From Phyllobacterium sp. (lineage in GTDB: Bacteria; Pseudomonadota; Alphaproteobacteria; Rhizobiales; Rhizobiaceae), in contig NZ_JBBNAM010000325.1 of assembly GCF_037994425.1 (NCBI RefSeq), forward strand, positions 2,438 through 66,437: a DNA stretch of 64,000 bases, read 5' to 3'. The notes under the pieces are model-generated. The model did no database searches and was not told the origin of the DNA. It was given only the letters and a program-made list of their open reading frames with translations. Positions 604 through 59,579 of this stretch are shown one piece after another. Both the position numbers and the translations under genes were made by a program. The stretch's first letter is position 1; each line of letters opens with the position of its first letter.

Positions 604-629
604 ACTGATCTGTGTTCAAACACCGAATC

Positions 630-666
630 AAAAAGGCCGGGCAATCGCTTGCCCGGCCTTTTGTTT
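630..666. terminator. Bidirectional intrinsic terminator between hupE/ureJ and lon
   Basis: AAAAA-GGCCGGGCAA-TCGC-TTGCCCGGCC-TTTT: perfect 10-bp stem with A and T tracts between convergent genes. Confidence 0.9.
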
Positions 667-677
667 TGGACGTTCGA

Positions 678-3098
<2,421 letters not shown>

Positions 3099-7407: not shown

Positions 7408-8694
7408 TTAACCCGCCTTGCTCAACGCCTGTTCCAGGTCGGTAATGATATCTTCAACGGTTTCGATGCCGATGGAGAGGCGGATAACCTCGGGCCCAGC
7501 CCCGGCGGCGACCTTCTGTTCGTCGCTGAGTTGGCGATGTGTCGTGGATGCCGGATGGATGACCAGCGATCGCGTATCGCCAATATTGGCAAGGTGCGAG
7601 AAGAGCTGCAGTGCTTCAACAAACTTGACGCCGGCGTCATAGCCGCCACGCAGCCCAAATGTGAAAACGGAACCAGCTCCCTTTGGCGCATATTTTTGTT
7701 GGAGGGCGTGATACGGGTCTTCCGGTAGCCCCGCATAACTCACCCAAGCGACCTTCTCGTGTCTTTGCAGCCATCGCGCGACCGCGAGTGCGTTTTCTGC
7801 GTGGCGCTGCATGCGCAGCGGCAACGTCTCGATGCCGGTGAGGATCTGGAACGCGTTGAACGGCGAAAGCGCTGGACCGAGATCCCGCAGGCCGAGAACG
7901 CGGCAGGCGATGGCAAAGGCAAAATTGCCGAAGGTGTCGTGGAGGACGGCACCGTTATATTCCGGGCGCGGCTCCGACAGCAGCGGATAATTGCCGGATT
8001 TCGACCAGTCGAACGTACCGCAATCAACAATGATACCGCCCATTGAATTGCCGTGGCCGCCGAGGAACTTGGTGGCTGAATGGACGATAATATCTGCACC
8101 GTGCTCAATCGGCCGGATGAGATGGGGTGTTGCGAGCGTATTATCGACAATGAGCGGAAGGCCATGGCGATGAGCGATCTCCGCGACGGCCGCAATATCT
8201 GTAATGATCCCGCCCGGATTGGCGATGCTTTCGATAAACACCGCGCGTGTCCGTGCGTCGATCTGGGACTCGAACGACGTCGGGTCATCGCCCTCTGCCC
8301 AGCGCACCTGCCAGCCGAACGACTTGAACGATTGGCCGAACTGGTTGATCGAACCGCCATAAAGTTTGTTCGAGGCAACGAAATTGTCCCCCGGCTGCAA
8401 CAGAGTGTGGAAGACCAGGAGTTGCGCCGCATGACCGGACGCGACGCTGAGCGCCGCTGTTCCGCCTTCGAGCGCCGCAACCCGCTCTTCCAGGACTGCG
8501 TTGGTGGGATTGGTGATGCGGGAGTAAATATTGCCGAAGGCCTTCAAGCCGAACAAAGACGCCGCATGATCGGCATCATCGAAGACAAAGGCTGTCGTCT
8601 GATAGATCGGCGTTACCCGCGCCCCAGTCGCAGGATCGGGCTTGGCGCCGGCGTGGACCGCAAGTGTTTCTATTCCGGGTGCGCGATGCGCCAT
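7408..8694 (-). CDS. metY: O-acetylhomoserine aminocarboxypropyltransferase (PLP)
   Basis: ETLAVHAG, YSRITNPT, PLP lysine in HSATKF; GGAGG RBS before MAHRAPG. Confidence 0.92.
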   Translation of the reverse strand: MAHRAPGIETLAVHAGAKPDPATGARVTPIYQTTAFVFDDADHAASLFGLKAFGNIYSRITNPTNAVLEERVAALEGGTAALSVASGHAAQLLVFHTLLQPGDNFVASNKLYGGSINQFGQSFKSFGWQVRWAEGDDPTSFESQIDARTRAVFIESIANPGGIITDIAAVAEIAHRHGLPLIVDNTLATPHLIRPIEHGADIIVHSATKFLGGHGNSMGGIIVDCGTFDWSKSGNYPLLSEPRPEYNGAVLHDTFGNFAFAIACRVLGLRDLGPALSPFNAFQILTGIETLPLRMQRHAENALAVARWLQRHEKVAWVSYAGLPEDPYHALQQKYAPKGAGSVFTFGLRGGYDAGVKFVEALQLFSHLANIGDTRSLVIHPASTTHRQLSDEQKVAAGAGPEVIRLSIGIETVEDIITDLEQALSKAG

Positions 8695-47223: not shown

Positions 47224-49380
47224 TCAGCTTTCTCCTTCGGCCGTCTTTGCCGCCTCTGCCGCCTTTTTGCGGTTCAACGTGTCGCGGGCGGCTGCGGCCG
47301 CGCTCGCCGATTGATCTTCATTAGCGGCGACCTGTACCCTGGGTGAGGCAAATTCGATGCCGTTGGCTGCAAAAGCTTCGCGGATCATGGCGTAGGCGCG
47401 GCGACGAATCGTAGATTGGTGCCCTGGTTTGGTCATCATGGCAAAGCTCAAGTTGATCCCGTAATCGCCAAACGCCTCGACCCCCTTCATCTTCACCGTT
47501 TCGATGATCTGGGGGCCAAATTCAGGATCTTCACGCAAAGCTGCGCCGACACCCTTCACCACCTTTTTGACCTTCGCGATATCCGTGTCGTAGTTCACCG
47601 ATATCAGGAACTTGTCGATGACCCAGTCACGGCTCATGTTCTGCACCGCCCCAAGCGAGCCAAAGGGAACCGTGAAAATCGGGCCGCGATGATGCCGCAG
47701 CTTCACCGAGCGGATACTGAACGACTCGACCGTACCCTTATAGCTGCCGCTCTGGATATATTCGCCAACTCGAAACGCGTCGTCGGTCATATAGAACACG
47801 CCGCTGATGACGTCCTTCACCAGTGATTGCGAGCCAAAGCCGATGGCAACGCCAAAAATACCGGCGCCGGCAATCAGGGGACCTATCTCGACGCCCAGTC
47901 CGGAGAGCACCATCATGACCGCGATGGTCGCGATGAGCGCGGCGAGGAAATTTCGCAGGATAGGCAAGAGCGTCAAGAGACGTCCGCTGCGGGCAAGTTC
48001 GGCTTCGTCACCGCCCTCGATGCGGGCACGCTCGATACGGCGATTTATGAGGCCTTTGGTCAACTGCCAGATAAGGTCGGCGGCCAATAGGATGACGACA
48101 CCGCTCAATACCCCCCGGATAAGTCGGGTGGCGTTTTCGTCCCCCATTAGGCCGCTTGCGCGAAATCGGGCGACCGAGGCAAGCCAAGCCACCGCAATTA
48201 CGATGACGAGGGCACGCGCTCCACGCTCCGTGAGCACTTCGAAAATCGTATTGCGGGATCTGACCGCATCGTCGCTACCGGCGAAGAAGGAGCGTACGAC
48301 CGCGCTCGTCGACCTCAAGATCGGTGGCAGCACGAGAGCATAGATTCCGACCCAAAGAAAAAGGTTCAAGCCCGCGACCCAAAGCAGCCAAAGCGCGCAC
48401 AAGTAGAATGTGAGCAGCCATTCCTTTAGCCGATAGACCTTCGACTCCGCGGGCGCTTCGGGGCGGCGCCAAACCGCTTCGACCGCGATCAAAAGCAGGC
48501 CGAGGCCGAGAATGTAGACAAGAAGACTTCGAACATTCGGCGTGAAGTTGAGAATGTCCATAAGGCCCTCAAAGGCCCAGCCGGCGAAGAAAATGCCGGC
48601 GAACGCGCCAACGCGGGGATACCAGAACTTCGCCCTGACGTCGTCCATGGGGATCAGGCGCAATTGCGGGTACACGCCGTCGCTCGCATAGGCACTGTGC
48701 GTGCCGAGGAGAATCGCCGTTATCTGCATGATTGCCCGCCAGGCGATGAGTGCGATCAGCAAAGGCAGGACTAGCTGCCAGAGAAGCGGCGGCCAGGTGA
48801 AGGCGAGGAATGCACCAACGCTGGCGACAGCGAAGACGACGAGCGGCGCGATGGCAACGAATATCGCCTTGCCGATCATGTGATGGCGCGCGGTGGTTCC
48901 GGCCTCCGTCACGCTGGCAAGGCCCCGTACATGCATTCGGCCAACCAGACGTCGGAAGACAAATTCGGCACCGAATCCGAGTGCGGCAAAGGCAGCGAAC
49001 AGCACCAAGATTGAGCCCGGGCCGCGACCATGTACTTCGGTCATGATCGTGTCGCTGGCTTCCTCGAATTCGCCCGGCACTTCGGGAATAGCCTCGCCGA
49101 CCCCGCGCAAATGCGCACGAATGGCATTCGACCATTTCATGAAGTCATTGGCTGAGGCACCCATAGACGCTTCCGGTGCCGGTGCCGAGCTTTTCTTCGC
49201 AATCCAGGCCTTCACCTCCGGATCATCCAAAAGTTTCAGCATTTGCTCGACTTTTTCAGGAGGCGTTGAAGGCGCTGTCTGCGTGCGAGCGATTGCGGCG
49301 CAGCCGACGAAGGCCATGAGGCCAAGTGCGAAGAGCGCGGCCGCCCTCGCTGCCCAGACCCGGAACTCAACATTACCCAT
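47224..49380 (-). CDS. MscS-family mechanosensitive channel with long N-terminal region
   Basis: GVEIGPLIAGAGIFGVAIGFGSQSLVKDVISG, FRVGEYI, GTVESFSIRS. Confidence 0.93.
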   Translation of the reverse strand: MGNVEFRVWAARAAALFALGLMAFVGCAAIARTQTAPSTPPEKVEQMLKLLDDPEVKAWIAKKSSAPAPEASMGASANDFMKWSNAIRAHLRGVGEAIPEVPGEFEEASDTIMTEVHGRGPGSILVLFAAFAALGFGAEFVFRRLVGRMHVRGLASVTEAGTTARHHMIGKAIFVAIAPLVVFAVASVGAFLAFTWPPLLWQLVLPLLIALIAWRAIMQITAILLGTHSAYASDGVYPQLRLIPMDDVRAKFWYPRVGAFAGIFFAGWAFEGLMDILNFTPNVRSLLVYILGLGLLLIAVEAVWRRPEAPAESKVYRLKEWLLTFYLCALWLLWVAGLNLFLWVGIYALVLPPILRSTSAVVRSFFAGSDDAVRSRNTIFEVLTERGARALVIVIAVAWLASVARFRASGLMGDENATRLIRGVLSGVVILLAADLIWQLTKGLINRRIERARIEGGDEAELARSGRLLTLLPILRNFLAALIATIAVMMVLSGLGVEIGPLIAGAGIFGVAIGFGSQSLVKDVISGVFYMTDDAFRVGEYIQSGSYKGTVESFSIRSVKLRHHRGPIFTVPFGSLGAVQNMSRDWVIDKFLISVNYDTDIAKVKKVVKGVGAALREDPEFGPQIIETVKMKGVEAFGDYGINLSFAMMTKPGHQSTIRRRAYAMIREAFAANGIEFASPRVQVAANEDQSASAAAAARDTLNRKKAAEAAKTAEGES

Positions 49381-49458
49381 TAGCTAGCCCCTGATAAATT
49401 TCTTTCACTATTCCCACAATATGCCGAACTGCCTTACGAATAAATTGCTGTATTGATG

Positions 49459-49573
49459 CACCCGAGCGAACCCGGAATCGGCCGCCGAAGCGGTCATGCT
49501 GGCAAGGGAGATCAGCCATCAATTGCCGGGCCCGCTCGGATGGGGCAATCGGAGGGAGGCACCCTGGTTGCCC
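49459..49573 (-). ncRNA. Candidate structured sRNA or 5' leader upstream of mscS
   Basis: Hairpin with CCUCCCUCC, then a 17-bp stem (G-U pairs only on the minus strand) closing a three-way junction with a cUUCGg hairpin and a CUCCC loop; promoter directly upstream. Confidence 0.55.
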
Positions 49574-49578
49574 GTCGG

Positions 49579-49623
49579 ATTTTCGTTCAAATAAATTGCC
49601 GCGTCAAAGTTGTTACAGTAACA
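49579..49623 (-). promoter_or_regulatory. RpoD-like promoter with an upstream palindrome
   Basis: TTGACG (49607-49602)-N17-GAAAAT (49584-49579); TGTTAC-A-GTAACA at 49611-49623. Confidence 0.5.
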
Positions 49624-49730
49624 TCGTTGCAATTCGAGCTGCTGCGCAGCATCCTCTTCAGCGAATGACGCTGGCCCTTCCGGTGCGGCTGGCAGTGTAA
49701 TTTAAATCAACATTTGCTTGGGGTTAGAGC

Positions 49731-50012
49731 ATGAAATTCATCTTGCCGGCTCTCGTCATATTCTCCTTCGGCGCTAGCGCCGCCGCAGCGCAGTCCATGG
49801 AGAGAAATATGCTGGAGCGCCGGACCGCGCGAGCGATCCGCAATGCAGGTTTCTGGTGCGATCAGGTTTCGAACGCCTATGTGGACAAGGTATTGTCCTC
49901 GACCGGCCCTACCGTAGTGCGCGTAACCTGCGACGACAAAACGAGATTTGAGCAATATAAACTGACGATGACTAAGGACAACAAGATCGCCAAGATCGAA
50001 ATCTGGAAATAA
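49731..50012 (+). CDS. Small exported hypothetical protein
   Basis: Signal peptide ending AAAA; two Cys (FWCD, VTCD). Confidence 0.75.
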   Translation: MKFILPALVIFSFGASAAAAQSMERNMLERRTARAIRNAGFWCDQVSNAYVDKVLSSTGPTVVRVTCDDKTRFEQYKLTMTKDNKIAKIEIWK

Positions 50013-50178: not shown

Positions 50179-51102
50179 ATGTTGAAGCAAGCCTCCTGTC
50201 TGACGGTGCTTCTCCTGGTTGGCGGTTGTGCCTCCGGAGGACCGCCGCAGATTTTGGCGTCCACGCGAACCGTCGATGCGCAGCAAGCTTATGCGCTGCC
50301 GCCGCCTGGCGGACCTTCCATCGTCAGTGTCATCGAGCGCTCCTACAATAATGCGGTGCAACAGGAGATTCTGTTGGCGACGTCCGCCCACACGCCCGGC
50401 CAGAATGTCCTGCGCGTGCAGTTTTTCGGGCCAGTCAGGGCAAACCTTTCAGGCGGCGATACGTTGCGGGATCGGCAGCTTGGCACAACCAACATCGATC
50501 GTGAGTTGCGCGGCACACTGCCGGGCGTTCCCATGCGCCGTTCTCCAAACTATGTGCAGAATCGTTACGGACCGTTCGGCTTTGCCAGCGGGCGCTCGCG
50601 ATCCGGCGATACCTGCATCTACGCCTGGCAACGCATCAGGCCACCTGAATCACAATCGCGCTGGTTTACCGGGCGTGGTTCCATCCAGGTCCGATTGCGT
50701 CTTTGCGATTCGCGGCTCACCGAAGAGCAGTTGCTGGCCTTCATGTATGGTTTCACCATCAATGCGGCTTTCAACGATTATAGCTGGAACCCCTATGGCG
50801 AGCCGGCCGGCGCACCTGAAAATCTTGGCCGCCCGGGCGCCAATATATATCCGGCCGGACCCGGCATGCCGCCGTCTACGTCATTGATGCCTCCGCCCGC
50901 GCCGCAGCCCGCCGCTGTGCAGCCGCAAAGGCGTGTCAGAGCACCGGCAACGCCTGCAGTCCAGACGAGGCCGGTAAGGCCCGCACCGATCGGACCTTTG
51001 GTTCCGCCGCCGCCTGTTTCCGGAACGACCCCGCTTACACCTGCACCGATCCAGATGAATCCCGCCATTGTTCCACCACCACCCACCGAAAACGCACAGT
51101 AA
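50179..51102 (+). CDS. bcsN: Cellulose biosynthesis lipoprotein BcsN (CelK-like)
   Basis: Lipobox VGGC; YGPFGFA...CIYAWQ...IQVRLRLC; directly upstream of bcsA. Confidence 0.85.
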   Translation: MLKQASCLTVLLLVGGCASGGPPQILASTRTVDAQQAYALPPPGGPSIVSVIERSYNNAVQQEILLATSAHTPGQNVLRVQFFGPVRANLSGGDTLRDRQLGTTNIDRELRGTLPGVPMRRSPNYVQNRYGPFGFASGRSRSGDTCIYAWQRIRPPESQSRWFTGRGSIQVRLRLCDSRLTEEQLLAFMYGFTINAAFNDYSWNPYGEPAGAPENLGRPGANIYPAGPGMPPSTSLMPPPAPQPAAVQPQRRVRAPATPAVQTRPVRPAPIGPLVPPPPVSGTTPLTPAPIQMNPAIVPPPPTENAQ

Positions 51103-51219
51103 ACCCGGAGCCTTTACGCAGTTACGTTCGTTAGGGAATGACCCTCCCCATTTAAACCAAAGCGCCAGGAAATGAGATGAATTCTTCGCCCGCCCGCCTA
51201 CCGAAAAGCACGGACGTTC

Positions 51220-53400
51220 ATGCGTAAGTTCCTTATCATCCTGATGTGGCTTGTCATGTCGATCTGCGTTCTGCTGCTGGTCACTTTGCCGGTGAATCTG
51301 CAGACGCAGCTCATCGCTGGTGCTTCGGTCCTGTTCCTCATGATGGTGTTGAAGACGCTGAATGCCGGCGGCATCTGGCGGCTGATCGCACTCGCCTTCG
51401 GTACGGCCATTGTCATGCGTTACGTGTACTGGCGAACGACGAGCACGCTACCGCCGGTGAACCAGCTTGAGAACTTCATTCCAGGGTTCCTGCTCTACCT
51501 CGCCGAGATTTACAGCGTGATGATGCTGGCGCTCAGCCTTTTCGTGGTGTCGATGCCACTGCCCCATCGCGCCGCGAGGCCAGCAACGCGAGGCGAACTG
51601 CCGAGCGTCGATGTGTTCATTCCGACCTACAACGAGGACATTGAACTTCTTGCGAACACGATGGCCGCAGCCAAGGCGATGGACTATCCGGCCGACAAGC
51701 TCACTGTCTGGATACTCGACGACGGCGGAACACTGCAGAAGCGCAACGCCGACAAGATCGTCGAATCACACATTGCAGAAAAGCGCTTCAACGACCTTTC
51801 GGCCCTTTGCGAGGCACTGGGCGTTCGCTACCTCACGCGCGAGAAGAACCTCCACGCCAAGGCGGGCAATCTCAACAACGGCCTCGAACATTCGAAGGGT
51901 GAACTCATCGCCGTGTTCGATGCGGACCACGCGCCAACGCGTGACTTCCTGCTGGAGACAGTCGGCTATTTCGATGAGGACGAGAAGCTGTTCCTCGTCC
52001 AGACGCCGCATTTCTTTCTCAACCCGGATCCGCTCGAGCGTAATCTACGCACGTTCGAGGAAATGCCCTCCGAGAACGAAATGTTCTACGGAATCATCCA
52101 GCGCGGCCTCGACAAATGGAACGCCGCGTTCTTTTGCGGGTCCGCCGCTGTGCTGCGCCGCGAAGCCCTCAATGTGACCGGCGGATTCAGCGGCATCAGC
52201 ATTACCGAGGACTGCGAGACCGCCATTGCCCTTCACTCGCGGGGCTGGAACAGCGTCTATCTCGACAAGCCACTCATCGCCGGTCTGCAGCCGGCTACGT
52301 TTGCCAGTTTCATCGGCCAGCGCAGCCGGTGGGCGCAGGGCATGATGCAAATCCTGCGGTTCCGCTTTCCGCTCTTCAATGGCGGCCTGACGATCCCGCA
52401 GCGCCTTTGCTATCTTTCGTCGACTCTGTTCTGGCTCTTCCCCTTCCCACGCGCCATTTTCCTGGTGGCGCCGCTGTTCTACCTTTTCTTCGGGCTTGAG
52501 ATCTTCACGGCATCGGGCGGGGAATTCCTCGCATACACGCTCATTTACATGGTCGTGAACCTGATGATGCAGAACTACCTTTATGGCGCTTTCCGCTGGC
52601 CCTGGATTTCCGAGCTCTACGAGTATGTACAGACCGTGCATCTTTTGCCGGCTGTGGTTTCCGTTGCGCTTAACCCGCACAAGCCTACGTTCAAAGTCAC
52701 GGCGAAGGACGAGCGTATCGACCGAAGCCGGCTTTCGGAATTGAGCGCGCCCTTCTTTGTCATCTTCTTCGTCCTGCTTGTCGGCGTCGGCGTGACCGTC
52801 TACCGGATATATACAGAGCCTTACAAAGCCGACGTCACGCTCGTTGTAGGCGCGTGGAACCTTCTAAACCTGGTTTTCGCCGGCTGTGCACTTGGGGTCG
52901 TCTCCGAGCGCGGAGATAAACGGCCATCACGGCGGGTGAAGGTGAGCCGCCGCTGTGAATTCCGAGCGGGAGAACGCTGGCTTCAAGGAACGATCGACGA
53001 CGTATCGGTCAACGGCATCCGTGTTCAGGTTCTTGGCGATGTGGTCGACACGGTATCGGTCGGTATGCTTACCGACGTCCGCTTCAAGACATTTGCGACG
53101 GGCGATCTCGGTGATCTTCCATTGCAGGTTCGCAATGTCAGAAAACAGGCTGGGGAGACATCGGTCGGCTGCATGTTTATGCCAGACCAGCCTACCGATC
53201 ATTCACTGATTGCCGATCTGATCTTTGCGAATTCGGCTCAGTGGACAAAATTCCAGCTCGAGCGACGCGGCAATCCTGGCCTCTTCAAGGGAACGATCTG
53301 GTTTTTCGGTGTCGCCATATTCCAGACCTATCGCGGGTTCTCCTATCTTTTCCGCCACTTGACGGGAAAAGGTAAGAGGGAATGGGAGGGCACGCTATGA
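51220..53400 (+). CDS. bcsA: Cellulose synthase catalytic subunit
   Basis: DDG, HAKAGN, DAD, FFCGS, TED, QRSRW; PilZ RxxxR and DxSxxG. Confidence 0.98.
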   Translation: MRKFLIILMWLVMSICVLLLVTLPVNLQTQLIAGASVLFLMMVLKTLNAGGIWRLIALAFGTAIVMRYVYWRTTSTLPPVNQLENFIPGFLLYLAEIYSVMMLALSLFVVSMPLPHRAARPATRGELPSVDVFIPTYNEDIELLANTMAAAKAMDYPADKLTVWILDDGGTLQKRNADKIVESHIAEKRFNDLSALCEALGVRYLTREKNLHAKAGNLNNGLEHSKGELIAVFDADHAPTRDFLLETVGYFDEDEKLFLVQTPHFFLNPDPLERNLRTFEEMPSENEMFYGIIQRGLDKWNAAFFCGSAAVLRREALNVTGGFSGISITEDCETAIALHSRGWNSVYLDKPLIAGLQPATFASFIGQRSRWAQGMMQILRFRFPLFNGGLTIPQRLCYLSSTLFWLFPFPRAIFLVAPLFYLFFGLEIFTASGGEFLAYTLIYMVVNLMMQNYLYGAFRWPWISELYEYVQTVHLLPAVVSVALNPHKPTFKVTAKDERIDRSRLSELSAPFFVIFFVLLVGVGVTVYRIYTEPYKADVTLVVGAWNLLNLVFAGCALGVVSERGDKRPSRRVKVSRRCEFRAGERWLQGTIDDVSVNGIRVQVLGDVVDTVSVGMLTDVRFKTFATGDLGDLPLQVRNVRKQAGETSVGCMFMPDQPTDHSLIADLIFANSAQWTKFQLERRGNPGLFKGTIWFFGVAIFQTYRGFSYLFRHLTGKGKREWEGTL

Positions 53401-55757
53401 GAAGATTTCTCATTGCCTGCTTTTTGATTGGCGTTTCCACTCTGGTTTCCCACGCCCAGGTTGCGCCGTTCGATATGTCGCCCGAGCGTCCGGCCGTACC
53501 AGCAACCCCGCCGACACAACAGCCCGTCAAACCGTTCTCGCCCATACCCGGCGAGCCGCCACCAGCACCCGCGCCCAAGCAGGCGACAGCACCTGCCGCC
53601 AGAACCGACGGCCAGGCGAGGCGCTATATCATTCCCCAGGACAGTCTTTCGTTCAGCGGCGAAACCGGTGACAAGACGTGGGCCGTCTTCATCACAACGG
53701 ATCAGGCGGCCGCCCCGGCCACCCTGTCGCTGACCTATCAGAGCAGCCTCGTCGTAGCACCAGAATGGTCAACGATTACGGTTTCTATCAACAACGCCCG
53801 CATCATCAGCGAGCCGGTCCAGTCGCCGGAAGGCCGCAAAACCTTGACTGCGAAGATCCCCGCCGGAATTCTCAAGGAAGGACTTAACACCTTCCGGATA
53901 ACGACCAGCCTTCGCCATCGCACCGACTGCACGGTGCAATCCACCTATGAATTGTGGACCGAGGTCGATCCTTCAAAAACATATCTTTCATTTGCCAGCG
54001 AAAGTGCCAGCAGGCTCAAGAAGTTGGACGATATACGAGCGATCGGAGTCGATGCGACCGGACGAACCACGTTCAACCTCGTTATACCTGCTATCGACCG
54101 CGCGCAGGCGGCCGCTCCCATGCTGCACGTTGCCCAGGGGCTGGCGATAATGGCCAATATGCCGAACCAGACAGTGACAGTCTCGTCCAACATGCCGACC
54201 GAACAGTCGCCGGGTGCGTTGACGGTCCTCCTTGGCACCGATGACGAACTGCAATCCGTTTCGGCATGGGCGGACAATCGCGGAGCGCCTGGCGCGGGGT
54301 TCATTGAAGACCCGGCGACCGGGAGTTCGATCCTCCGGCTGCGCGGCGCCGACTGGCAGTCTGTCAGCAGCGCGGTAGCAGGATTGGTTGATCCGCTGAA
54401 GCGTGACCTTAGTGTCCCGCGGACATTCCTGTCGACGCAGACATGGCGGTCCCCCGACGTACCGCTCTTCCTTTCAGCTTCGCGGGTAAAGCTGAGCGAA
54501 CTCGGCGTCGATACGAAAAACTTCACCGGACGCCGCCTGCGAACCGAATTTGCCGTCGGCGTTCCCTCGGATTTTTATGCAAACGAGTATGGCAAGGCGA
54601 CGATTCTCCTCGATGCTGCCTATTCGGAAGACGTTATGCCGGGCAGCCAGATCAACGTCTATGTCAACGACAATATTGCCGCCACACTTCCGATAACCAC
54701 ATCTGGCGGCGAGATCCTGCGGCATTTTCCGATCGGCTTCACGATGCGGCACTTCCGCCCCGGCGTGAACCTCATCACCATCGAGGCGGCGCTCAATACC
54801 AAAACGGATTCCGTGTGCGCGCCCGGGACCAATGCGTCCTCGACGACGCGCTTTGCGCTTTTCGATTCGTCTGAATTCGTCATTCCAACCTTTGCAAGGA
54901 TCGGTACCCTGCCCAACCTTGCCGGGACGAGCGGTACAAGCTTCCCCTACAACCGGTCAGAAAAGCCCCTGCCCGTCGTGATGAACAATGCCGGCGAAAA
55001 GAGCCTTTCGGCGGCAGCGACCCTGCTCGCGCGCATGGCCGTGGCAGCGGGTCGCCCGATCGAAGTCGATCCGAGAGCGACAACGAATTCGGCCATGAAT
55101 TCCAATGCACTCTTCGTGGGCGCCATTCCGCAAATTGAATCGAGCGTTCTGACACAGACCGGGATCTCCGAGAACACAAGGACGATATGGAGCGCGGTTA
55201 AAGGCAATGTCGAAGCGGCACCGGAAGAAAATACGCAGTCCGACTTCAACGAATGGCGGGAGCGGCTTTCTGGCAAGGGCTGGCGCGGCCAGATCTCCTC
55301 TTTCGACGACTGGTTGAACCGCACGTTCAATATTTCGCTAAGCAGTCTCTCCCTGCATGACGAAAGCGATGCGCCGTACACGCCCGAACCGGCAGCAACA
55401 CTGCTCATTGCCCAGCGACCCAATCCCAACGGCGACGGTGTCTGGACTGTGGCGACATCGGCCAATGACGACAATCTCATCGAGGGCGTGTGCGCCCTGA
55501 CGCGACAGGATCATTGGCCGGAACTCGATGGCCACATCTCCATTTACAAAGCCGGCACGGACGAAATGCAGAAGGTGCCCGTGGGCAACTACACCTTTGT
55601 TTCGACACAGCCCCTGTCATTTTCCAACATGAGACTAGTCATAGCCAATTGGCTTTCCGGCAATATCCTGTGGTTTTCATTGATCCTCGTTGTCCTGGCC
55701 GGCTTGCTTGGCATTGCAACCTCACGGATGCTGGCGAATCTCGGGAGGCGCATATGA
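53397..55757 (+). CDS. bcsB: Cellulose synthase periplasmic subunit BcsB
   Basis: ATGA overlap with bcsA; signal peptide; HRTDC...ELWT; C-terminal TM helix. Confidence 0.93.
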   Translation: MRRFLIACFLIGVSTLVSHAQVAPFDMSPERPAVPATPPTQQPVKPFSPIPGEPPPAPAPKQATAPAARTDGQARRYIIPQDSLSFSGETGDKTWAVFITTDQAAAPATLSLTYQSSLVVAPEWSTITVSINNARIISEPVQSPEGRKTLTAKIPAGILKEGLNTFRITTSLRHRTDCTVQSTYELWTEVDPSKTYLSFASESASRLKKLDDIRAIGVDATGRTTFNLVIPAIDRAQAAAPMLHVAQGLAIMANMPNQTVTVSSNMPTEQSPGALTVLLGTDDELQSVSAWADNRGAPGAGFIEDPATGSSILRLRGADWQSVSSAVAGLVDPLKRDLSVPRTFLSTQTWRSPDVPLFLSASRVKLSELGVDTKNFTGRRLRTEFAVGVPSDFYANEYGKATILLDAAYSEDVMPGSQINVYVNDNIAATLPITTSGGEILRHFPIGFTMRHFRPGVNLITIEAALNTKTDSVCAPGTNASSTTRFALFDSSEFVIPTFARIGTLPNLAGTSGTSFPYNRSEKPLPVVMNNAGEKSLSAAATLLARMAVAAGRPIEVDPRATTNSAMNSNALFVGAIPQIESSVLTQTGISENTRTIWSAVKGNVEAAPEENTQSDFNEWRERLSGKGWRGQISSFDDWLNRTFNISLSSLSLHDESDAPYTPEPAATLLIAQRPNPNGDGVWTVATSANDDNLIEGVCALTRQDHWPELDGHISIYKAGTDEMQKVPVGNYTFVSTQPLSFSNMRLVIANWLSGNILWFSLILVVLAGLLGIATSRMLANLGRRI

Positions 55758-56803
55758 GGGCATCCGCGTTCCTCCTATCTGTTTTCCTTGCCTTCGCCGG
55801 CAGCGGGGTTGCCATGGCGCAGAACTTGTCCGGGACGGTCAAGCCAGAGGATTGGGCTGCGTATAAAACACGTTTCATCGATGCCGCTGGACGTGTGATC
55901 GATGATGCCAATGGCAATATCAGCCATAGTGAAGGCCAGGGTTACGGATTGCTGCTCGCATATCTTGCCAGTAGCAAGGCAGATTTCGACCAAATCTGGT
56001 CATTCACGCGAACCGAGCTTTTGCTGCGTGACGACGGTCTTGCCATGTGGAAATGGGATCCGTCTGCAAAGCCTCACATTACCGACAGCAACAATGCGTC
56101 GGATGGCGATATTCTTATCGCATACGCCCTGTTGCTTGCTGGCGCAGATTGGGGACGCAACGACTTCGTCGGTGCAGCAAAGACGATCATCGGCGGTCTC
56201 GGCAAGTCCAACGTCGTCAAATGGCAGGACCGGTTGCTGCTGCTGCCGGGTGCGAAGGGATTTTCAGAAGCTGACCGCAACGATGGTCCGATCATCAACC
56301 TGTCCTATTGGGTTTTCGAGGCCTTTCCGAAATTCGCGTCGGTCGACAAGACGACTGATTGGACGCAACTGAGCATCAATGGCGTTGGGCTACTTAATAA
56401 GGCAAGCGCCGGTCCAAGGTCGATGCCTGCGGATTGGATGTCGGCCAAGACTCAATTGAAGCCGGCCAAAGGCTTCGCTGCGGAATTCGGATACAACGCA
56501 TTGCGCATTCCGCTCTATCTGATGCGCGCCCATATCAACGATCAGGAATTGCTGACCAGGTTGCGCAAGGGAATGACCTCGGAGAGCGGCGAGGTCGTCA
56601 TTACGGATAGCGAAAGTGGCAGTGTCAAAGAAACACTTCCTGATGCGGGGTACGTGATTATCCCTGCCTTGATCGGTTGCGTGCTCGACAAGACAAAATT
56701 GCCGGATTCCGTGCGCTCATTCCAGCCGACCCTATACTATCCCTCGACGCTGCATCTATTATCGCTTTCATTTGCCTACAGCCAGCACCCGGAATGTTTA
56801 TGA
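55754..56803 (+). CDS. bcsZ: GH8 endoglucanase (BcsZ/CelC)
   Basis: SHSEGQGYG, NASDGD, FGYNALRIPLY. Confidence 0.96.
   Translation: MRASAFLLSVFLAFAGSGVAMAQNLSGTVKPEDWAAYKTRFIDAAGRVIDDANGNISHSEGQGYGLLLAYLASSKADFDQIWSFTRTELLLRDDGLAMWKWDPSAKPHITDSNNASDGDILIAYALLLAGADWGRNDFVGAAKTIIGGLGKSNVVKWQDRLLLLPGAKGFSEADRNDGPIINLSYWVFEAFPKFASVDKTTDWTQLSINGVGLLNKASAGPRSMPADWMSAKTQLKPAKGFAAEFGYNALRIPLYLMRAHINDQELLTRLRKGMTSESGEVVITDSESGSVKETLPDAGYVIIPALIGCVLDKTKLPDSVRSFQPTLYYPSTLHLLSLSFAYSQHPECL

Positions 56804-59502: not shown

Positions 59503-59579
<77 letters not shown>

What the first reader, a model, noticed from the sequence alone, without database searches (positions are those of the whole stretch)
49459..49573. 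Highly structured candidate RNA upstream of mscS, with strand-specific G-U pairs and anti-SD loops
Seen on the minus strand: hairpin GGGCAACC-AGGGUGCCUCCCUCC-GAUUGCCC directly abuts a continuous 17-bp stem CAUCCGAGCGGGCCCGG/CCGGGUUCGCUCGGGUG, extended by AAUU/GAUU. This closes a three-way junction holding a GCUG/CAGC hairpin with loop AUCUCCCUUGC and a CCGC-UUCG-GCGG hairpin. Four G-U pairs and the cUUCGg loop work only on this strand. A TTGACG-N17-GAAAAT promoter puts +1 at the first G (about 49573). Established: CU-rich anti-SD loops typify rhizobial trans-acting sRNAs (cuckoo/ar14, AbcR, MmgR), but these loops match none exactly as I recall them. No U-tract terminator follows, so it may instead be a 190-nt mscS leader; a 48-codon uORF (MADLPCQHDRF...) without an SD overlaps the mscS start.
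Basis: partly seen in the sequence, partly recalled or inferred. Interest (0 to 1): 0.75.

Follow-up and report, generated by a model that had tools for sequence, protein, structure and literature searches.

The report
Conserved structured RNA leading mscS
A roughly 115-nucleotide folded RNA with two identical pyrimidine-rich loops sits at the very start of the transcript of a mechanosensitive-channel gene in some Phyllobacterium soil bacteria; it is a real, selected, previously uncatalogued RNA element, probably a small regulator of translation, but its expression and targets are untested.

Summary
On the minus strand, 49573-49459 folds into a 5' hairpin that abuts a 17-bp stem closing a three-way junction (MFE -62 kcal/mol, z -3.35).

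It is not a repeat and matches no Rfam family. Ten further copies exist, all in Phyllobacterium-like genomes. Nine lie in the leader of the orthologous YbiO/MscS-family gene. One lies on a P. zundukense plasmid, beside a paralogue of the divergent 93-aa gene and without mscS.

- **Structure:** 90% of cells pair across the copies, against 25-50% when partners are slid. Six pairs change on both sides. G-U cells favour the mscS-sense strand, 38 to 14.
- **Selection:** element identity is 0.71-0.86 where third codon positions next door are 0.41-0.49.
- **Conserved sites:** both loops carry an invariant CUCCCU core. Junctions and the P4 loop vary, which argues against a riboswitch.
- **Dispensability:** the element is deleted in one close orthologue, absent in four others and half-replaced in two.
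- **uORF:** not conserved.
- **Own SD:** no specific pairing to it.

Best reading: a lineage-specific anti-SD riboregulator made as the 5' end of the mscS transcript. Whether it acts in cis or in trans is unresolved. Transcript evidence is inconclusive. It is a new member of a known kind, of moderate interest.

The parts
49611..49632 (-). Conserved palindromic box TTGCAACGATGTTAC-T-GTAACA (core TGTTACNGTAACA, 49611-49623), immediately upstream of the -35 hexamer. Candidate operator or activator site of T-N11-A type.
   Evidence: Single occurrence in the window. Present once upstream of the mscS orthologue in the eight mscS-linked full copies and in L003, and beside the L001 plasmid copy. A GTTACAGTAAC core also lies upstream of a paralogous mscS (L022). 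Absent from L024/L025.
49579..49607 (-). Distal sigma-70-type promoter TTGACG-N17-GAAAAT.
   Evidence: Promoter scan hit. Hexamers and the 17-nt spacer are kept in all eight mscS-linked full copies and in L003, which lacks the element. The TSS is inferred, not shown.
49543..49573 (-). P1: 5'-terminal hairpin GGGCAA/UUGCCC with an inner AGGG/CCCU stem. Its loop holds the invariant GCCUCCCU block (anti-SD-like loop 1, about 49564-49551).
   Evidence: The inner stem shows a compensatory AGGG/CCCU to AGAG/CUUU change in L026.
49526..49542 (-). P2, 5' arm of the 17-bp closing stem.
   Evidence: helix 2 is 91% paired, and 4 of its pairs change on both sides.
49498..49516 (-). P3 hairpin GCUG/CAGC. 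Its 11-nt loop AUCUCCCUUGC holds the invariant core CUCCCUUG (anti-SD-like loop 2, 49512-49502).
   Evidence: P3 lengthens to 6 bp with G-U and U-G pairs in L004 and L020.
49482..49493 (-). P4 hairpin CCGC-UUCG-GCGG. The stem is conserved; the loop varies.
   Evidence: The loop reads UUCG, UCCU, AUUG, CUCG, CUUG or GAAG in different copies. Its mean pairwise identity is 0.43.
49459..49479 (-). P2b and P2, 3' arms (GAUU + CCGGGUUCGCUCGGGUG). This is the end of the conserved module.
   Evidence: Similarity of the plasmid copy L001 ends here.
49381..49458 (-). Remaining mscS leader. It comprises a variable linker, the A/U-rich AUUUAUUC, a proximal promoter-like AAGGCA (49435-49430)-N17-AATAGT (49412-49407), and the G-run SD AGGGGC (49392-49387).
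   Evidence: The 3' part of about 70 nt is conserved in all orthologues, including those without the element. GAGACA-N17-CATAAT/TATAGT scores as a promoter in L023 and L028.
47224..49380 (-). Downstream gene: a 718-aa MscS-family (YbiO-like) mechanosensitive channel.
   Evidence: Pfam MS_channel_1st, 2nd and 3rd domains. Partial NCBIfam PRK11465 match. Closest homologues are in Phyllobacterium.
49731..50012 (+). Divergent 93-aa gene for a small protein with a predicted signal peptide and no known family. It travels with the palindrome and the RNA element.
   Evidence: Orthologues lie beside L002, L004, L020 and L026. A 60%-identical paralogue lies beside the plasmid copy L001.

Best explanation
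The element is a lineage-specific non-coding RNA module of about 115 nt. It is transcribed from a sigma-70-type promoter flanked by a palindromic box, and it forms the extreme 5' end of the long transcript of a YbiO/MscS-family channel gene.

**Shown**
- It folds into a 5'-terminal hairpin (P1) stacked on a 17-bp stem (P2) that closes a three-way junction (P3, P4).
- The fold is under purifying selection.
- The strongly constrained single-stranded parts are the two hairpin loops. Each displays the same CUCCCU core (GCCUCCCUCC and UCUCCCUUG).

**Inferred**
- The loops act as anti-Shine-Dalgarno seeds that pair with G-rich ribosome-binding sites and lower translation. This is the design of the rhizobial AbcR1/2 and NfeR1 sRNAs.
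- There is no terminator, so the active species would be one of two things. It could be the 5' UTR itself. Or it could be a 5' fragment released by cleavage in the A/U-rich linker just after P2, with P2 serving as a protective 3' stem.
- The plasmid copy keeps the loops without any mscS. This tips me towards a function that does not depend on mscS in cis.
For: **Fold and stability**
- The fold and its stability are confirmed.

**Conservation and selection**
- Eleven copies are known. Pairs form in 90% of cells, against 25-50% with slid partners.
- Six pairs change on both sides (reached by 9 of 500 shuffles). The covariation score is 0.192 (3 of 500).
- G-U cells outnumber A-C cells 38 to 14, which favours the mscS-sense strand.
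- Element identity is 0.71-0.86 between lineages whose adjacent third codon positions are 0.41-0.49 identical.
- The identity is 0.58-0.67 for the old plasmid paralogue L001. L001 has no mscS remnant.

**Which parts are constrained**
- The blocks GCCTCCCT and CTCCCTTG are invariant wherever the loop exists.
- Junction nucleotides and the P4 loop vary.

**Promoter and transcript**
- The promoter hexamers and the 17-nt spacing are conserved, and P1 begins 5-6 nt after the -10 hexamer in all full copies.
- No terminator follows.
- Soil metatranscriptome contigs bridge the element and the CDS.

**Known design**
- Two or three redundant anti-SD motifs in loops is the documented design of AbcR1/2 and NfeR1 (PMC8844928, read).
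Against: - No transcript start, end or small RNA species has been shown. The available contigs are read-sized and low in depth, and some cross the predicted +1.
- There is no U-tract terminator. The known Hfq-dependent rhizobial anti-SD sRNAs have one (my own knowledge).
- Ten of the eleven copies are tied to mscS, which fits a cis role.
- The plasmid copy has weakened promoter hexamers, an eroded P3 and an eroded upper P2. It may be decaying.
- The element has been lost, or is absent, in several close relatives (L003, L021, L023, L027, L028).
- CUCCCU is complementary to almost any strong SD. Target prediction within the window is therefore unspecific.
Confidence: 0.45

Rival explanations
1. 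It is a purely cis-acting leader domain of the mscS mRNA. The 5'-terminal hairpin and the long P2 helix would set mRNA half-life, either by protecting the 5' end or by serving as an RNase III/RNase E entry site. Alternatively, C-rich segments would mask the G-run SD (GGGGC) and so tune channel synthesis. No trans targets are involved.
For: - Ten of the eleven copies lie at one fixed place in the mscS leader.
- L024 and L025 keep the three-way junction in the leader although the promoter and half of P1 were replaced.
- No terminator follows, and contigs bridge the element and the CDS.
- P1 starts at the predicted +1.
- P2 plus P2b give about 22 bp of near-continuous helix.
Against: - There is no conserved or better-than-shuffled complementarity between the element and its own SD region in seven orthologues. 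The best-pairing segment differs in each.
- The loops pair with the own RBS at only -9.2 kcal/mol, rank 1055 of 1522 candidate starts.
- The SD GGGGGC and the 3' leader are equally conserved in species without the element.
- The plasmid copy keeps both loops without mscS.
- A stabiliser role does not explain the invariant loop sequences.
Confidence: 0.3
2. It is a riboswitch or protein-binding sensor. The three-way junction or the loops would bind a small ligand, an ion or an RNA-binding protein linked to osmotic or envelope stress.
For: - The architecture is a three-way junction in a 5' leader of an ion-channel gene.
- The loops are invariant.
- The neighbours are cellulose/EPS and EAL genes.
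Against: - Junction strands are variable: mean identity 0.55, with several positions free.
- There is no expression platform or terminator.
- No Rfam riboswitch matches, even at E<=10.
- The distribution is confined to part of one genus, and the element is dispensable in close relatives.
Confidence: 0.1
3. It is a DNA-level or selfish feature, or neutral junk: a small mobile palindromic insertion (MITE/REP/RIME-like), or a protein-binding inverted repeat with no RNA function.
For: - Presence and absence are patchy along the mscS tree.
- There is a clean indel in L003.
- The plus strand folds almost as well.
Against: - It is not repeated in the window.
- Only one hit turned up in 72,556 plasmids.
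- The pattern scan of 185,579 species genomes found only mscS-linked copies.
- The metagenome pattern scan found none.
- One-sided changes go to G-U on the sense strand, 38 against 14.
- Identity is far above that of synonymous sites.
Confidence: 0.08
4. The region encodes the 48-codon upstream peptide (MADLPCQHDRF...), and the conservation reflects coding.
For: The ORF exists in the window and in its two closest relatives.
Against: - The start codon is absent or the frame stops early in L004, L006, L007 and L020.
- There is no SD.
- The substitutions preserve base pairs, not codons.
Confidence: 0.02

Closest known systems
AbcR1/AbcR2 (alpha-r15 family) of Sinorhizobium, Agrobacterium and Brucella
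   Same: - An RNA of about 115-120 nt in Hyphomicrobiales.
- A sigma-70 promoter with a T-N11-A-type box just upstream.
- A 5' hairpin whose loop carries a CU-rich anti-SD motif, plus a second independent anti-SD motif (aSD1 CUCCUCCC, aSD2 UUCCCCUC; PMC8844928).
   Different: - There is no sequence or structure match (Rfam cmscan at E<=10 is empty).
- The motif differs (CUCCCU), and the second motif sits in a hairpin loop of a three-way junction rather than in a linker.
- There is no Rho-independent terminator.
- It is fused to an mRNA leader.
- It is known only from part of Phyllobacterium.
NfeR1 (alpha-r14 / cuckoo family), an osmoresponsive rhizobial sRNA
   Same: - Redundant, identical anti-SD motifs displayed on several stem-loops.
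- A link to osmoadaptation: NfeR1 is stress-induced and needed for osmoadaptation (PMC8844928). Here the partner gene is a mechanosensitive channel.
   Different: - There are two motifs rather than three, with a different sequence.
- The topology is a three-way junction.
- No Rfam ar14 or cuckoo match.
- It is not a free-standing gene.
5'-UTR-derived or attenuator-derived sRNAs (for example rnTrpL of S. meliloti, or riboswitch-derived sRNAs)
   Same: The regulatory RNA is made from the 5' end of an mRNA and has potential dual cis and trans use (my own knowledge of the class).
   Different: Those are released by a defined terminator or attenuator. Here there is no terminator, and release would need processing, which is untested.
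ROSE and other SD-masking leaders of Rhizobiales
   Same: A multi-hairpin 5' leader in the same bacterial order, with pyrimidine-rich segments complementary to an SD.
   Different: - In ROSE the SD lies inside the last hairpin.
- Here the SD is 70-110 nt downstream.
- No conserved pairing to it was found.
- There is no Rfam ROSE match.

Membership tests
alpha-r15 (AbcR1/2), Rfam | Match to the family covariance model (sequence and structure) | tested here: not met
   cmscan of 49300-49750 at E<=10 gave 0 hits. The whole window at gathering score gave only a tRNA. Orthologues L001, L004, L020 and L026 at E<=5 gave nothing at the element.
alpha-r15 (AbcR1/2), Rfam | aSD1 CUCCUCCC in the 5' hairpin loop and aSD2 UUCCCCUC between SL1 and SL2 (PMC8844928) | tested here: not met
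   The loops read GCCUCCCUCC and UCUCCCUUG. Neither 8-mer is present.
alpha-r15 (AbcR1/2), Rfam | Rho-independent terminator at the 3' end | tested here: not met
   No terminator-like site lies downstream of P2.
alpha-r14 / cuckoo (NfeR1), Rfam | Match to the family covariance model, and three identical anti-SD motifs | tested here: not met
   No Rfam hit. There are two CUCCCU cores, not three.
Generic class: anti-SD base-pairing riboregulator | Conserved, accessible CU-rich motif(s) complementary to the SD | tested here: met
   The CUCCCU core is invariant in both loops in every copy that has the loop. Both lie in hairpin loops of the MFE and consensus folds.
Generic class: anti-SD base-pairing riboregulator | Demonstrated pairing with and repression of target mRNAs | not testable with these tools
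   Only unspecific in-window predictions are available.
Generic class: anti-SD base-pairing riboregulator | Expressed as a discrete RNA | tested here: inconclusive
   No RNA run holds the window sequence. The metatranscriptome contigs on L009 and L007 are read-sized and low in depth, and some cross the predicted +1.
Cis-regulatory SD-masking leader | Conserved complementarity between the element and its own SD or start region | tested here: not met
   Duplex energies are no better than for shuffled SD regions, and the pairing segment differs in each orthologue.
Riboswitch | Highly conserved junction or core nucleotides plus an expression platform | tested here: not met
   Junction identity is 0.55 and the P4 loop 0.43. 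There is no terminator or SD-sequestering helix.
Intergenic repeat / MITE (RIME, REP-like) | Many dispersed copies per genome | tested here: not met
   - One copy in the window.
- A single plasmid hit in PLSDB.
- The genome-collection pattern scan returned only mscS-linked copies plus one chance match.
- Whole Phyllobacterium chromosomes could not be scanned with the covariance model.

The most novel reading that the evidence does not exclude
The module is a new osmostress-linked regulatory RNA that is both the 5' UTR of a mechanosensitive-channel mRNA and, after processing, a trans-acting anti-SD sRNA. It would be co-regulated with a divergent secreted small protein through one palindromic operator. 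In that case channel synthesis and the translation of a set of G-rich-SD mRNAs are coupled by a single transcript, and the plasmid copy is a free-standing descendant of it.
Probability: 0.25. Interest if true: 0.6.

Novelty: new member of a known kind. Interest (0 to 1): 0.45.

Why it matters
If the loops really act as anti-SD seeds, this adds a new family to the small set of alphaproteobacterial anti-SD riboregulators. It would also be an unusual one, because it is born from an mRNA leader without a terminator.

Natural variants already exist that could serve as ready-made experiments:
- a full deletion (L003);
- loss of P1 with the three-way junction kept (L024, L025);
- a copy without the channel gene (L001).

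It would also give a first handle on post-transcriptional control of MscS-type channels in plant-associated bacteria. The taxonomic range is narrow, part of one genus, which limits its general importance.

Tried and rejected
- **Rfam.** Searched at gathering score on the whole window, and at E<=10 or E<=5 on the region and on four orthologues. Nothing matched.
- **Repeat hypothesis.** Tested with arm searches allowing 3 mismatches, the repeat finder and the covariance model R1 on the window and 32 loci. No extra copy was found.
- **Plasmid BLAST.** Three different copies were used as queries. Only the P. zundukense plasmid copy matched.
- **Genome-collection pattern scan.** It gave three true mscS-linked copies and one chance hit, the reverse complement of an RBS.
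- **Metagenome pattern scan.** It gave ten chance hits only. The pattern was too strict for variants such as the GGTACC loop of L020.
- **uORF.** Rejected, because the frame is not conserved.
- **Cis masking of the own SD.** Rejected as a specific conserved pairing. A loop-1 G-to-A change with SD GGGGGC-to-GGGGGU in L020 looked compensatory. However, L024 has GGGGGU without any loop 1.
- **EcfG-type promoter reading of the palindrome (GCAAC-N16-CGTT).** It fits only the plasmid copy. The mscS copies read CTTT.
- **LsrB box (GCAT-N3-TG-N3-T).** It matches only 5 of 7 positions, so it is a lead rather than a finding.
- **Transcript ends from public runs.** One contig starts exactly at the first G of P1 in L007. 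A sister run crosses that point, and all contigs are read-sized, so this is no evidence.
- **mscS pseudogene in L001.** None was found downstream of the element.
- **Literature search for the loop sequences.** Nothing relevant turned up.

Full report
**Observation**

- A 5' hairpin, P1 (GGGCAA/UUGCCC), with a 17-nt C/U- and G-rich loop region.
- A continuous 17-bp stem, P2 (49542-49526 with 49475-49459), that abuts P1 directly and holds three G-U pairs.
- A 4-bp extension, P2b, with a fourth G-U.
- Inside the stem, a three-way junction with two hairpins: P3 (loop AUCUCCCUUGC) and P4 (cUUCGg).

RNAfold gives this fold at -62.0 kcal/mol, z -3.35, with 0 of 200 shuffles as stable. The opposite strand folds a little worse, at -60.2 kcal/mol and z -2.5.

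A TTGACG-N17-GAAAAT site lies at 49607-49579, and no terminator-like site follows. Downstream is a 718-aa MscS-family, YbiO-like channel gene at 47224-49380. Upstream and divergent is a 93-aa gene for a small protein with a signal-peptide-like N-terminus and no known family.

**Not a known family and not a repeat**

- Rfam 15 has no match, neither at gathering score nor at E<=10 on the region. It also has none on four orthologous loci.
- The arms and the whole module occur once in the 64-kb window.
- BLAST of three different copies against 72,556 plasmids found a single related sequence.
- A three-anchor pattern scan of the species-representative genome collection returned three true copies and one chance hit.
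- The same kind of scan on metagenome contigs returned only chance hits.

**Relatives**

The window comes from a Phyllobacterium-like soil organism. Its MscS protein is 89% identical to that of Phyllobacterium sp. SYP-B3895, and only soil-metagenome DNA runs hold the sequence.

I collected orthologous mscS loci by exact-protein look-up. They fall into five groups.
- **Full module in the same place in the leader:** L002, L009, L006, L004, L007, L020 and L026.
- **Module deleted:** L003. Its MscS is closer to the window's (80% identity) than those of L004 or L020. It keeps the promoter, half of the palindrome and the downstream leader, but has 27 nt where the others have about 135 nt. Given the tree, this is most simply a secondary deletion.
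- **No module and no palindrome:** L021, L023, L027 and L028. They share only the last 70 nt or so of the leader.
- **Half replaced:** L024 and L025. The promoter, the palindrome and the 5' half of P1 are replaced by unrelated sequence next to an arginase gene. The three-way junction with loop 2 remains.
- **Plasmid copy:** L001, on P. zundukense plasmid NZ_CP104969.1. It carries a paralogue of the 93-aa gene (60% identical at the amino-acid level), the palindrome, the promoter region and the module. It has no mscS and no remnant of one, and a convergent hydrolase gene follows.

The covariance model R1, built from the 11 copies, finds nothing else in any held sequence. That includes the regions upstream of plasmid-borne mscS homologues of Sinorhizobium, Rhizobium, Ensifer and Microvirga. 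On present evidence the element is confined to part of the genus Phyllobacterium.

**Is the structure selected?**

The evidence comes from alignment A3, which has 10 distinct rows.
- 90% of cells form standard pairs, against 25-50% when the 3' partners are slid by 1-3 columns.
- Six pairs change on both sides (reached by 9 of 500 shuffles).
- The covariation score is 0.192, against 0.166 +/- 0.009 in shuffles (3 of 500).
- Most changes are one-sided and lead to G-U. There are 38 G-U cells on the mscS-sense strand, against 14 A-C cells that would be G-U on the other strand. That gives 297 canonical cells of 330 for the sense strand and 273 for the antisense strand. The RNA is therefore read on the mscS-sense strand.

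The neighbouring 93-aa gene gives a neutral yardstick.
- Third codon positions between lineages are 0.41-0.49 identical.
- The module is 0.71-0.86 identical between the same lineages.
- The module is 0.58-0.67 identical to the plasmid paralogue.

The module is therefore under purifying selection, and apparently also where no mscS follows it. The sample is small, with about six independent lineages, so the covariation statistics are suggestive rather than conclusive.

**Which parts matter?**

- Invariant blocks are GCCTCCCT in loop 1 and CTCCCTTG in loop 2. Parts of the P2 and P4 stems are also invariant.
- Both loops share the core CUCCCU.
- The junction strands and the P4 loop are free to vary, with mean identities of 0.55 and 0.43. 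This pattern is the opposite of a riboswitch and points to the two loops as the functional sites.
- An inner stem in P1 (AGGG/CCCU) is kept by a compensatory change in L026 (AGAG/CUUU).

**Promoter and context**

- The -35 hexamer TTGAC(G/C), the 17-nt spacer and an A2/T6 -10 hexamer are conserved in all eight mscS-linked full copies and in L003. P1 begins 5-6 nt after the -10 hexamer in all full copies. A transcript from this promoter would therefore start at the first or second base of P1. This is inference; no TSS data exist.
- Directly upstream of the -35 hexamer lies the box TTGCAACGATGTTAC-N-GTAACA. It is conserved in all these loci, in L003 and in L001. Its GTTACAGTAAC core also appears upstream of a paralogous mscS in L022. 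It has T-N11-A form and sits where the LysR-type box sits in PabcR1 (PMC8844928). It matches the LsrB consensus at only 5 of 7 positions.
- The last 70 nt or so of the leader is conserved across the genus. In L023 and L028 it scores as a promoter, GAGACA-N17-CATAAT/TATAGT. The window version, AAGGCA-N17-AATAGT (49435-49407), is weaker. mscS may therefore have a proximal promoter of its own, and the module may belong to a distal, separately regulated transcript that reads into mscS.

**Transcription evidence**

- No RNA run holds the window sequence.
- Root metatranscriptome contigs cover the L009 locus evenly at depth 2-6, including the sequence upstream of the promoter. They say nothing about ends, and DNA carry-over cannot be excluded.
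- On L007, two soil metatranscriptome contigs (7617-7839 and 7616-7764) run from P3 into the CDS, whose ATG is at 7740. This is consistent with co-transcription.
- One contig starts exactly at the first G of P1 (7544). A run of the same sample crosses that point, and all contigs are read-sized. I do not count this as evidence.

**Mechanism**

*Shown:* a selected, strand-specific fold at the 5' end of the mscS leader, with two invariant CUCCCU loops and no terminator.

*Inferred:* the loops are anti-SD seeds. This is the documented design of AbcR1/2, which have two independent anti-SD motifs, one of them in the 5' hairpin loop. It is also the design of NfeR1, which has three identical motifs and is needed for osmoadaptation (PMC8844928).

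*Cis or trans is unresolved.*
- For cis: the fixed position in the mscS leader, and retention of the three-way junction in L024 and L025.
- Against a simple cis SD mask: the own SD is a poor partner for the loops (-9.2 kcal/mol, rank 1055 of 1522 candidate starts in the window).
- Also against it: in seven orthologues the best element-SD duplex is no better than with shuffled SD regions, and it uses a different segment each time.
- Also against it: the SD is equally conserved where the element is absent.
- For independence from mscS: the old plasmid paralogue keeps both loops, although its promoter hexamers, P3 and upper P2 are eroded.

Release of a stable 5' fragment by cleavage in the conserved A/U-rich linker after P2 is a plausible route to a trans-acting species, but it is untested.

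**Verdict**

It is a previously uncatalogued, lineage-restricted structured RNA with anti-SD-type loops, made as the 5' end of an mscS-family transcript. It works like the rhizobial anti-SD riboregulators but is not a member of alpha-r14 or alpha-r15, because the defining model match, motif sequences and terminator were tested and not met. I rate it a new member of a known kind and of moderate interest. The narrow range and the lack of expression data hold it back. The natural deletion, truncation and orphan variants make it unusually easy to test.

Noticed in passing
window 49611-49632 (- strand); also L001 2451-2461, L003 2862-2872, L022 1848-1858: A palindromic box TTGCAACGATGTTAC-N-GTAACA abuts the -35 hexamer of the distal mscS promoter. 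It is kept even where the RNA element is deleted (L003). Its core recurs upstream of a paralogous mscS (L022). It has T-N11-A form and sits where the LsrB box sits in PabcR1, but matches that consensus at only 5 of 7 positions. It is probably the operator of an unidentified regulator shared by mscS and the divergent 93-aa gene.
   Followed up: partly
window 49407-49435 (- strand); L023 1942-1970; L028 1445-1473: The genus-wide conserved 3' part of the mscS leader scores as a sigma-70-type promoter (GAGACA-N17-CATAAT/TATAGT) in orthologues without the element. mscS may have a proximal promoter downstream of the structured RNA, and the window version (AAGGCA-N17-AATAGT) is degenerate.
   Followed up: partly
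window 49731-50012 (+); L001 2073-2357 (-): A 93-aa protein has a signal-peptide-like N-terminus, a conserved RTARAIRNAGFWCD motif and two conserved cysteines. It has no Pfam or NCBIfam family. It is always divergent from this mscS and is duplicated, together with the RNA element, onto a P. zundukense plasmid.
   Followed up: partly
L003 2900-2935: In a metagenome-assembled relative (MscS 80% identical), the element is replaced by 27 nt (ACAAGGGCAGGCGCATCGGGATCGAAC). These bases resemble the first bases of P1 joined to the last bases of P2, so this is an apparent clean internal deletion.
   Followed up: yes
L024 1020-1142, L025 641-763: In two near-identical metagenomic contigs, the mscS leader keeps only the three-way-junction half of the element. 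It lies behind unrelated sequence next to an arginase gene. Between the two contigs a G-U pair in P2 becomes A-U.
   Followed up: yes
window 50179-56803 (+): A cellulose synthesis cluster lies next door: bcsN (50179-51102; CBP_BcsN, E 1.6e-72), bcsA (51220-53400) and two further ORFs. The RBSs at 53397 and 55754 (GGGAGGGCAC and GGGAGGCGC) are among the best in-window matches to loop 1. This is probably only because they are strong SDs.
   Followed up: no
window 59506-59579 (-): A tRNA gene, the only Rfam hit in the window (64.1 bits). A tRNA gene scoring the same 64.1 bits also lies about 0.5-0.9 kb upstream of mscS in L020 and L026.
   Followed up: no
window 613-680: A 32-nt inverted repeat with a 4-nt spacer (75% complementary) that ends in a T-run. 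It looks like a bidirectional terminator.
   Followed up: no
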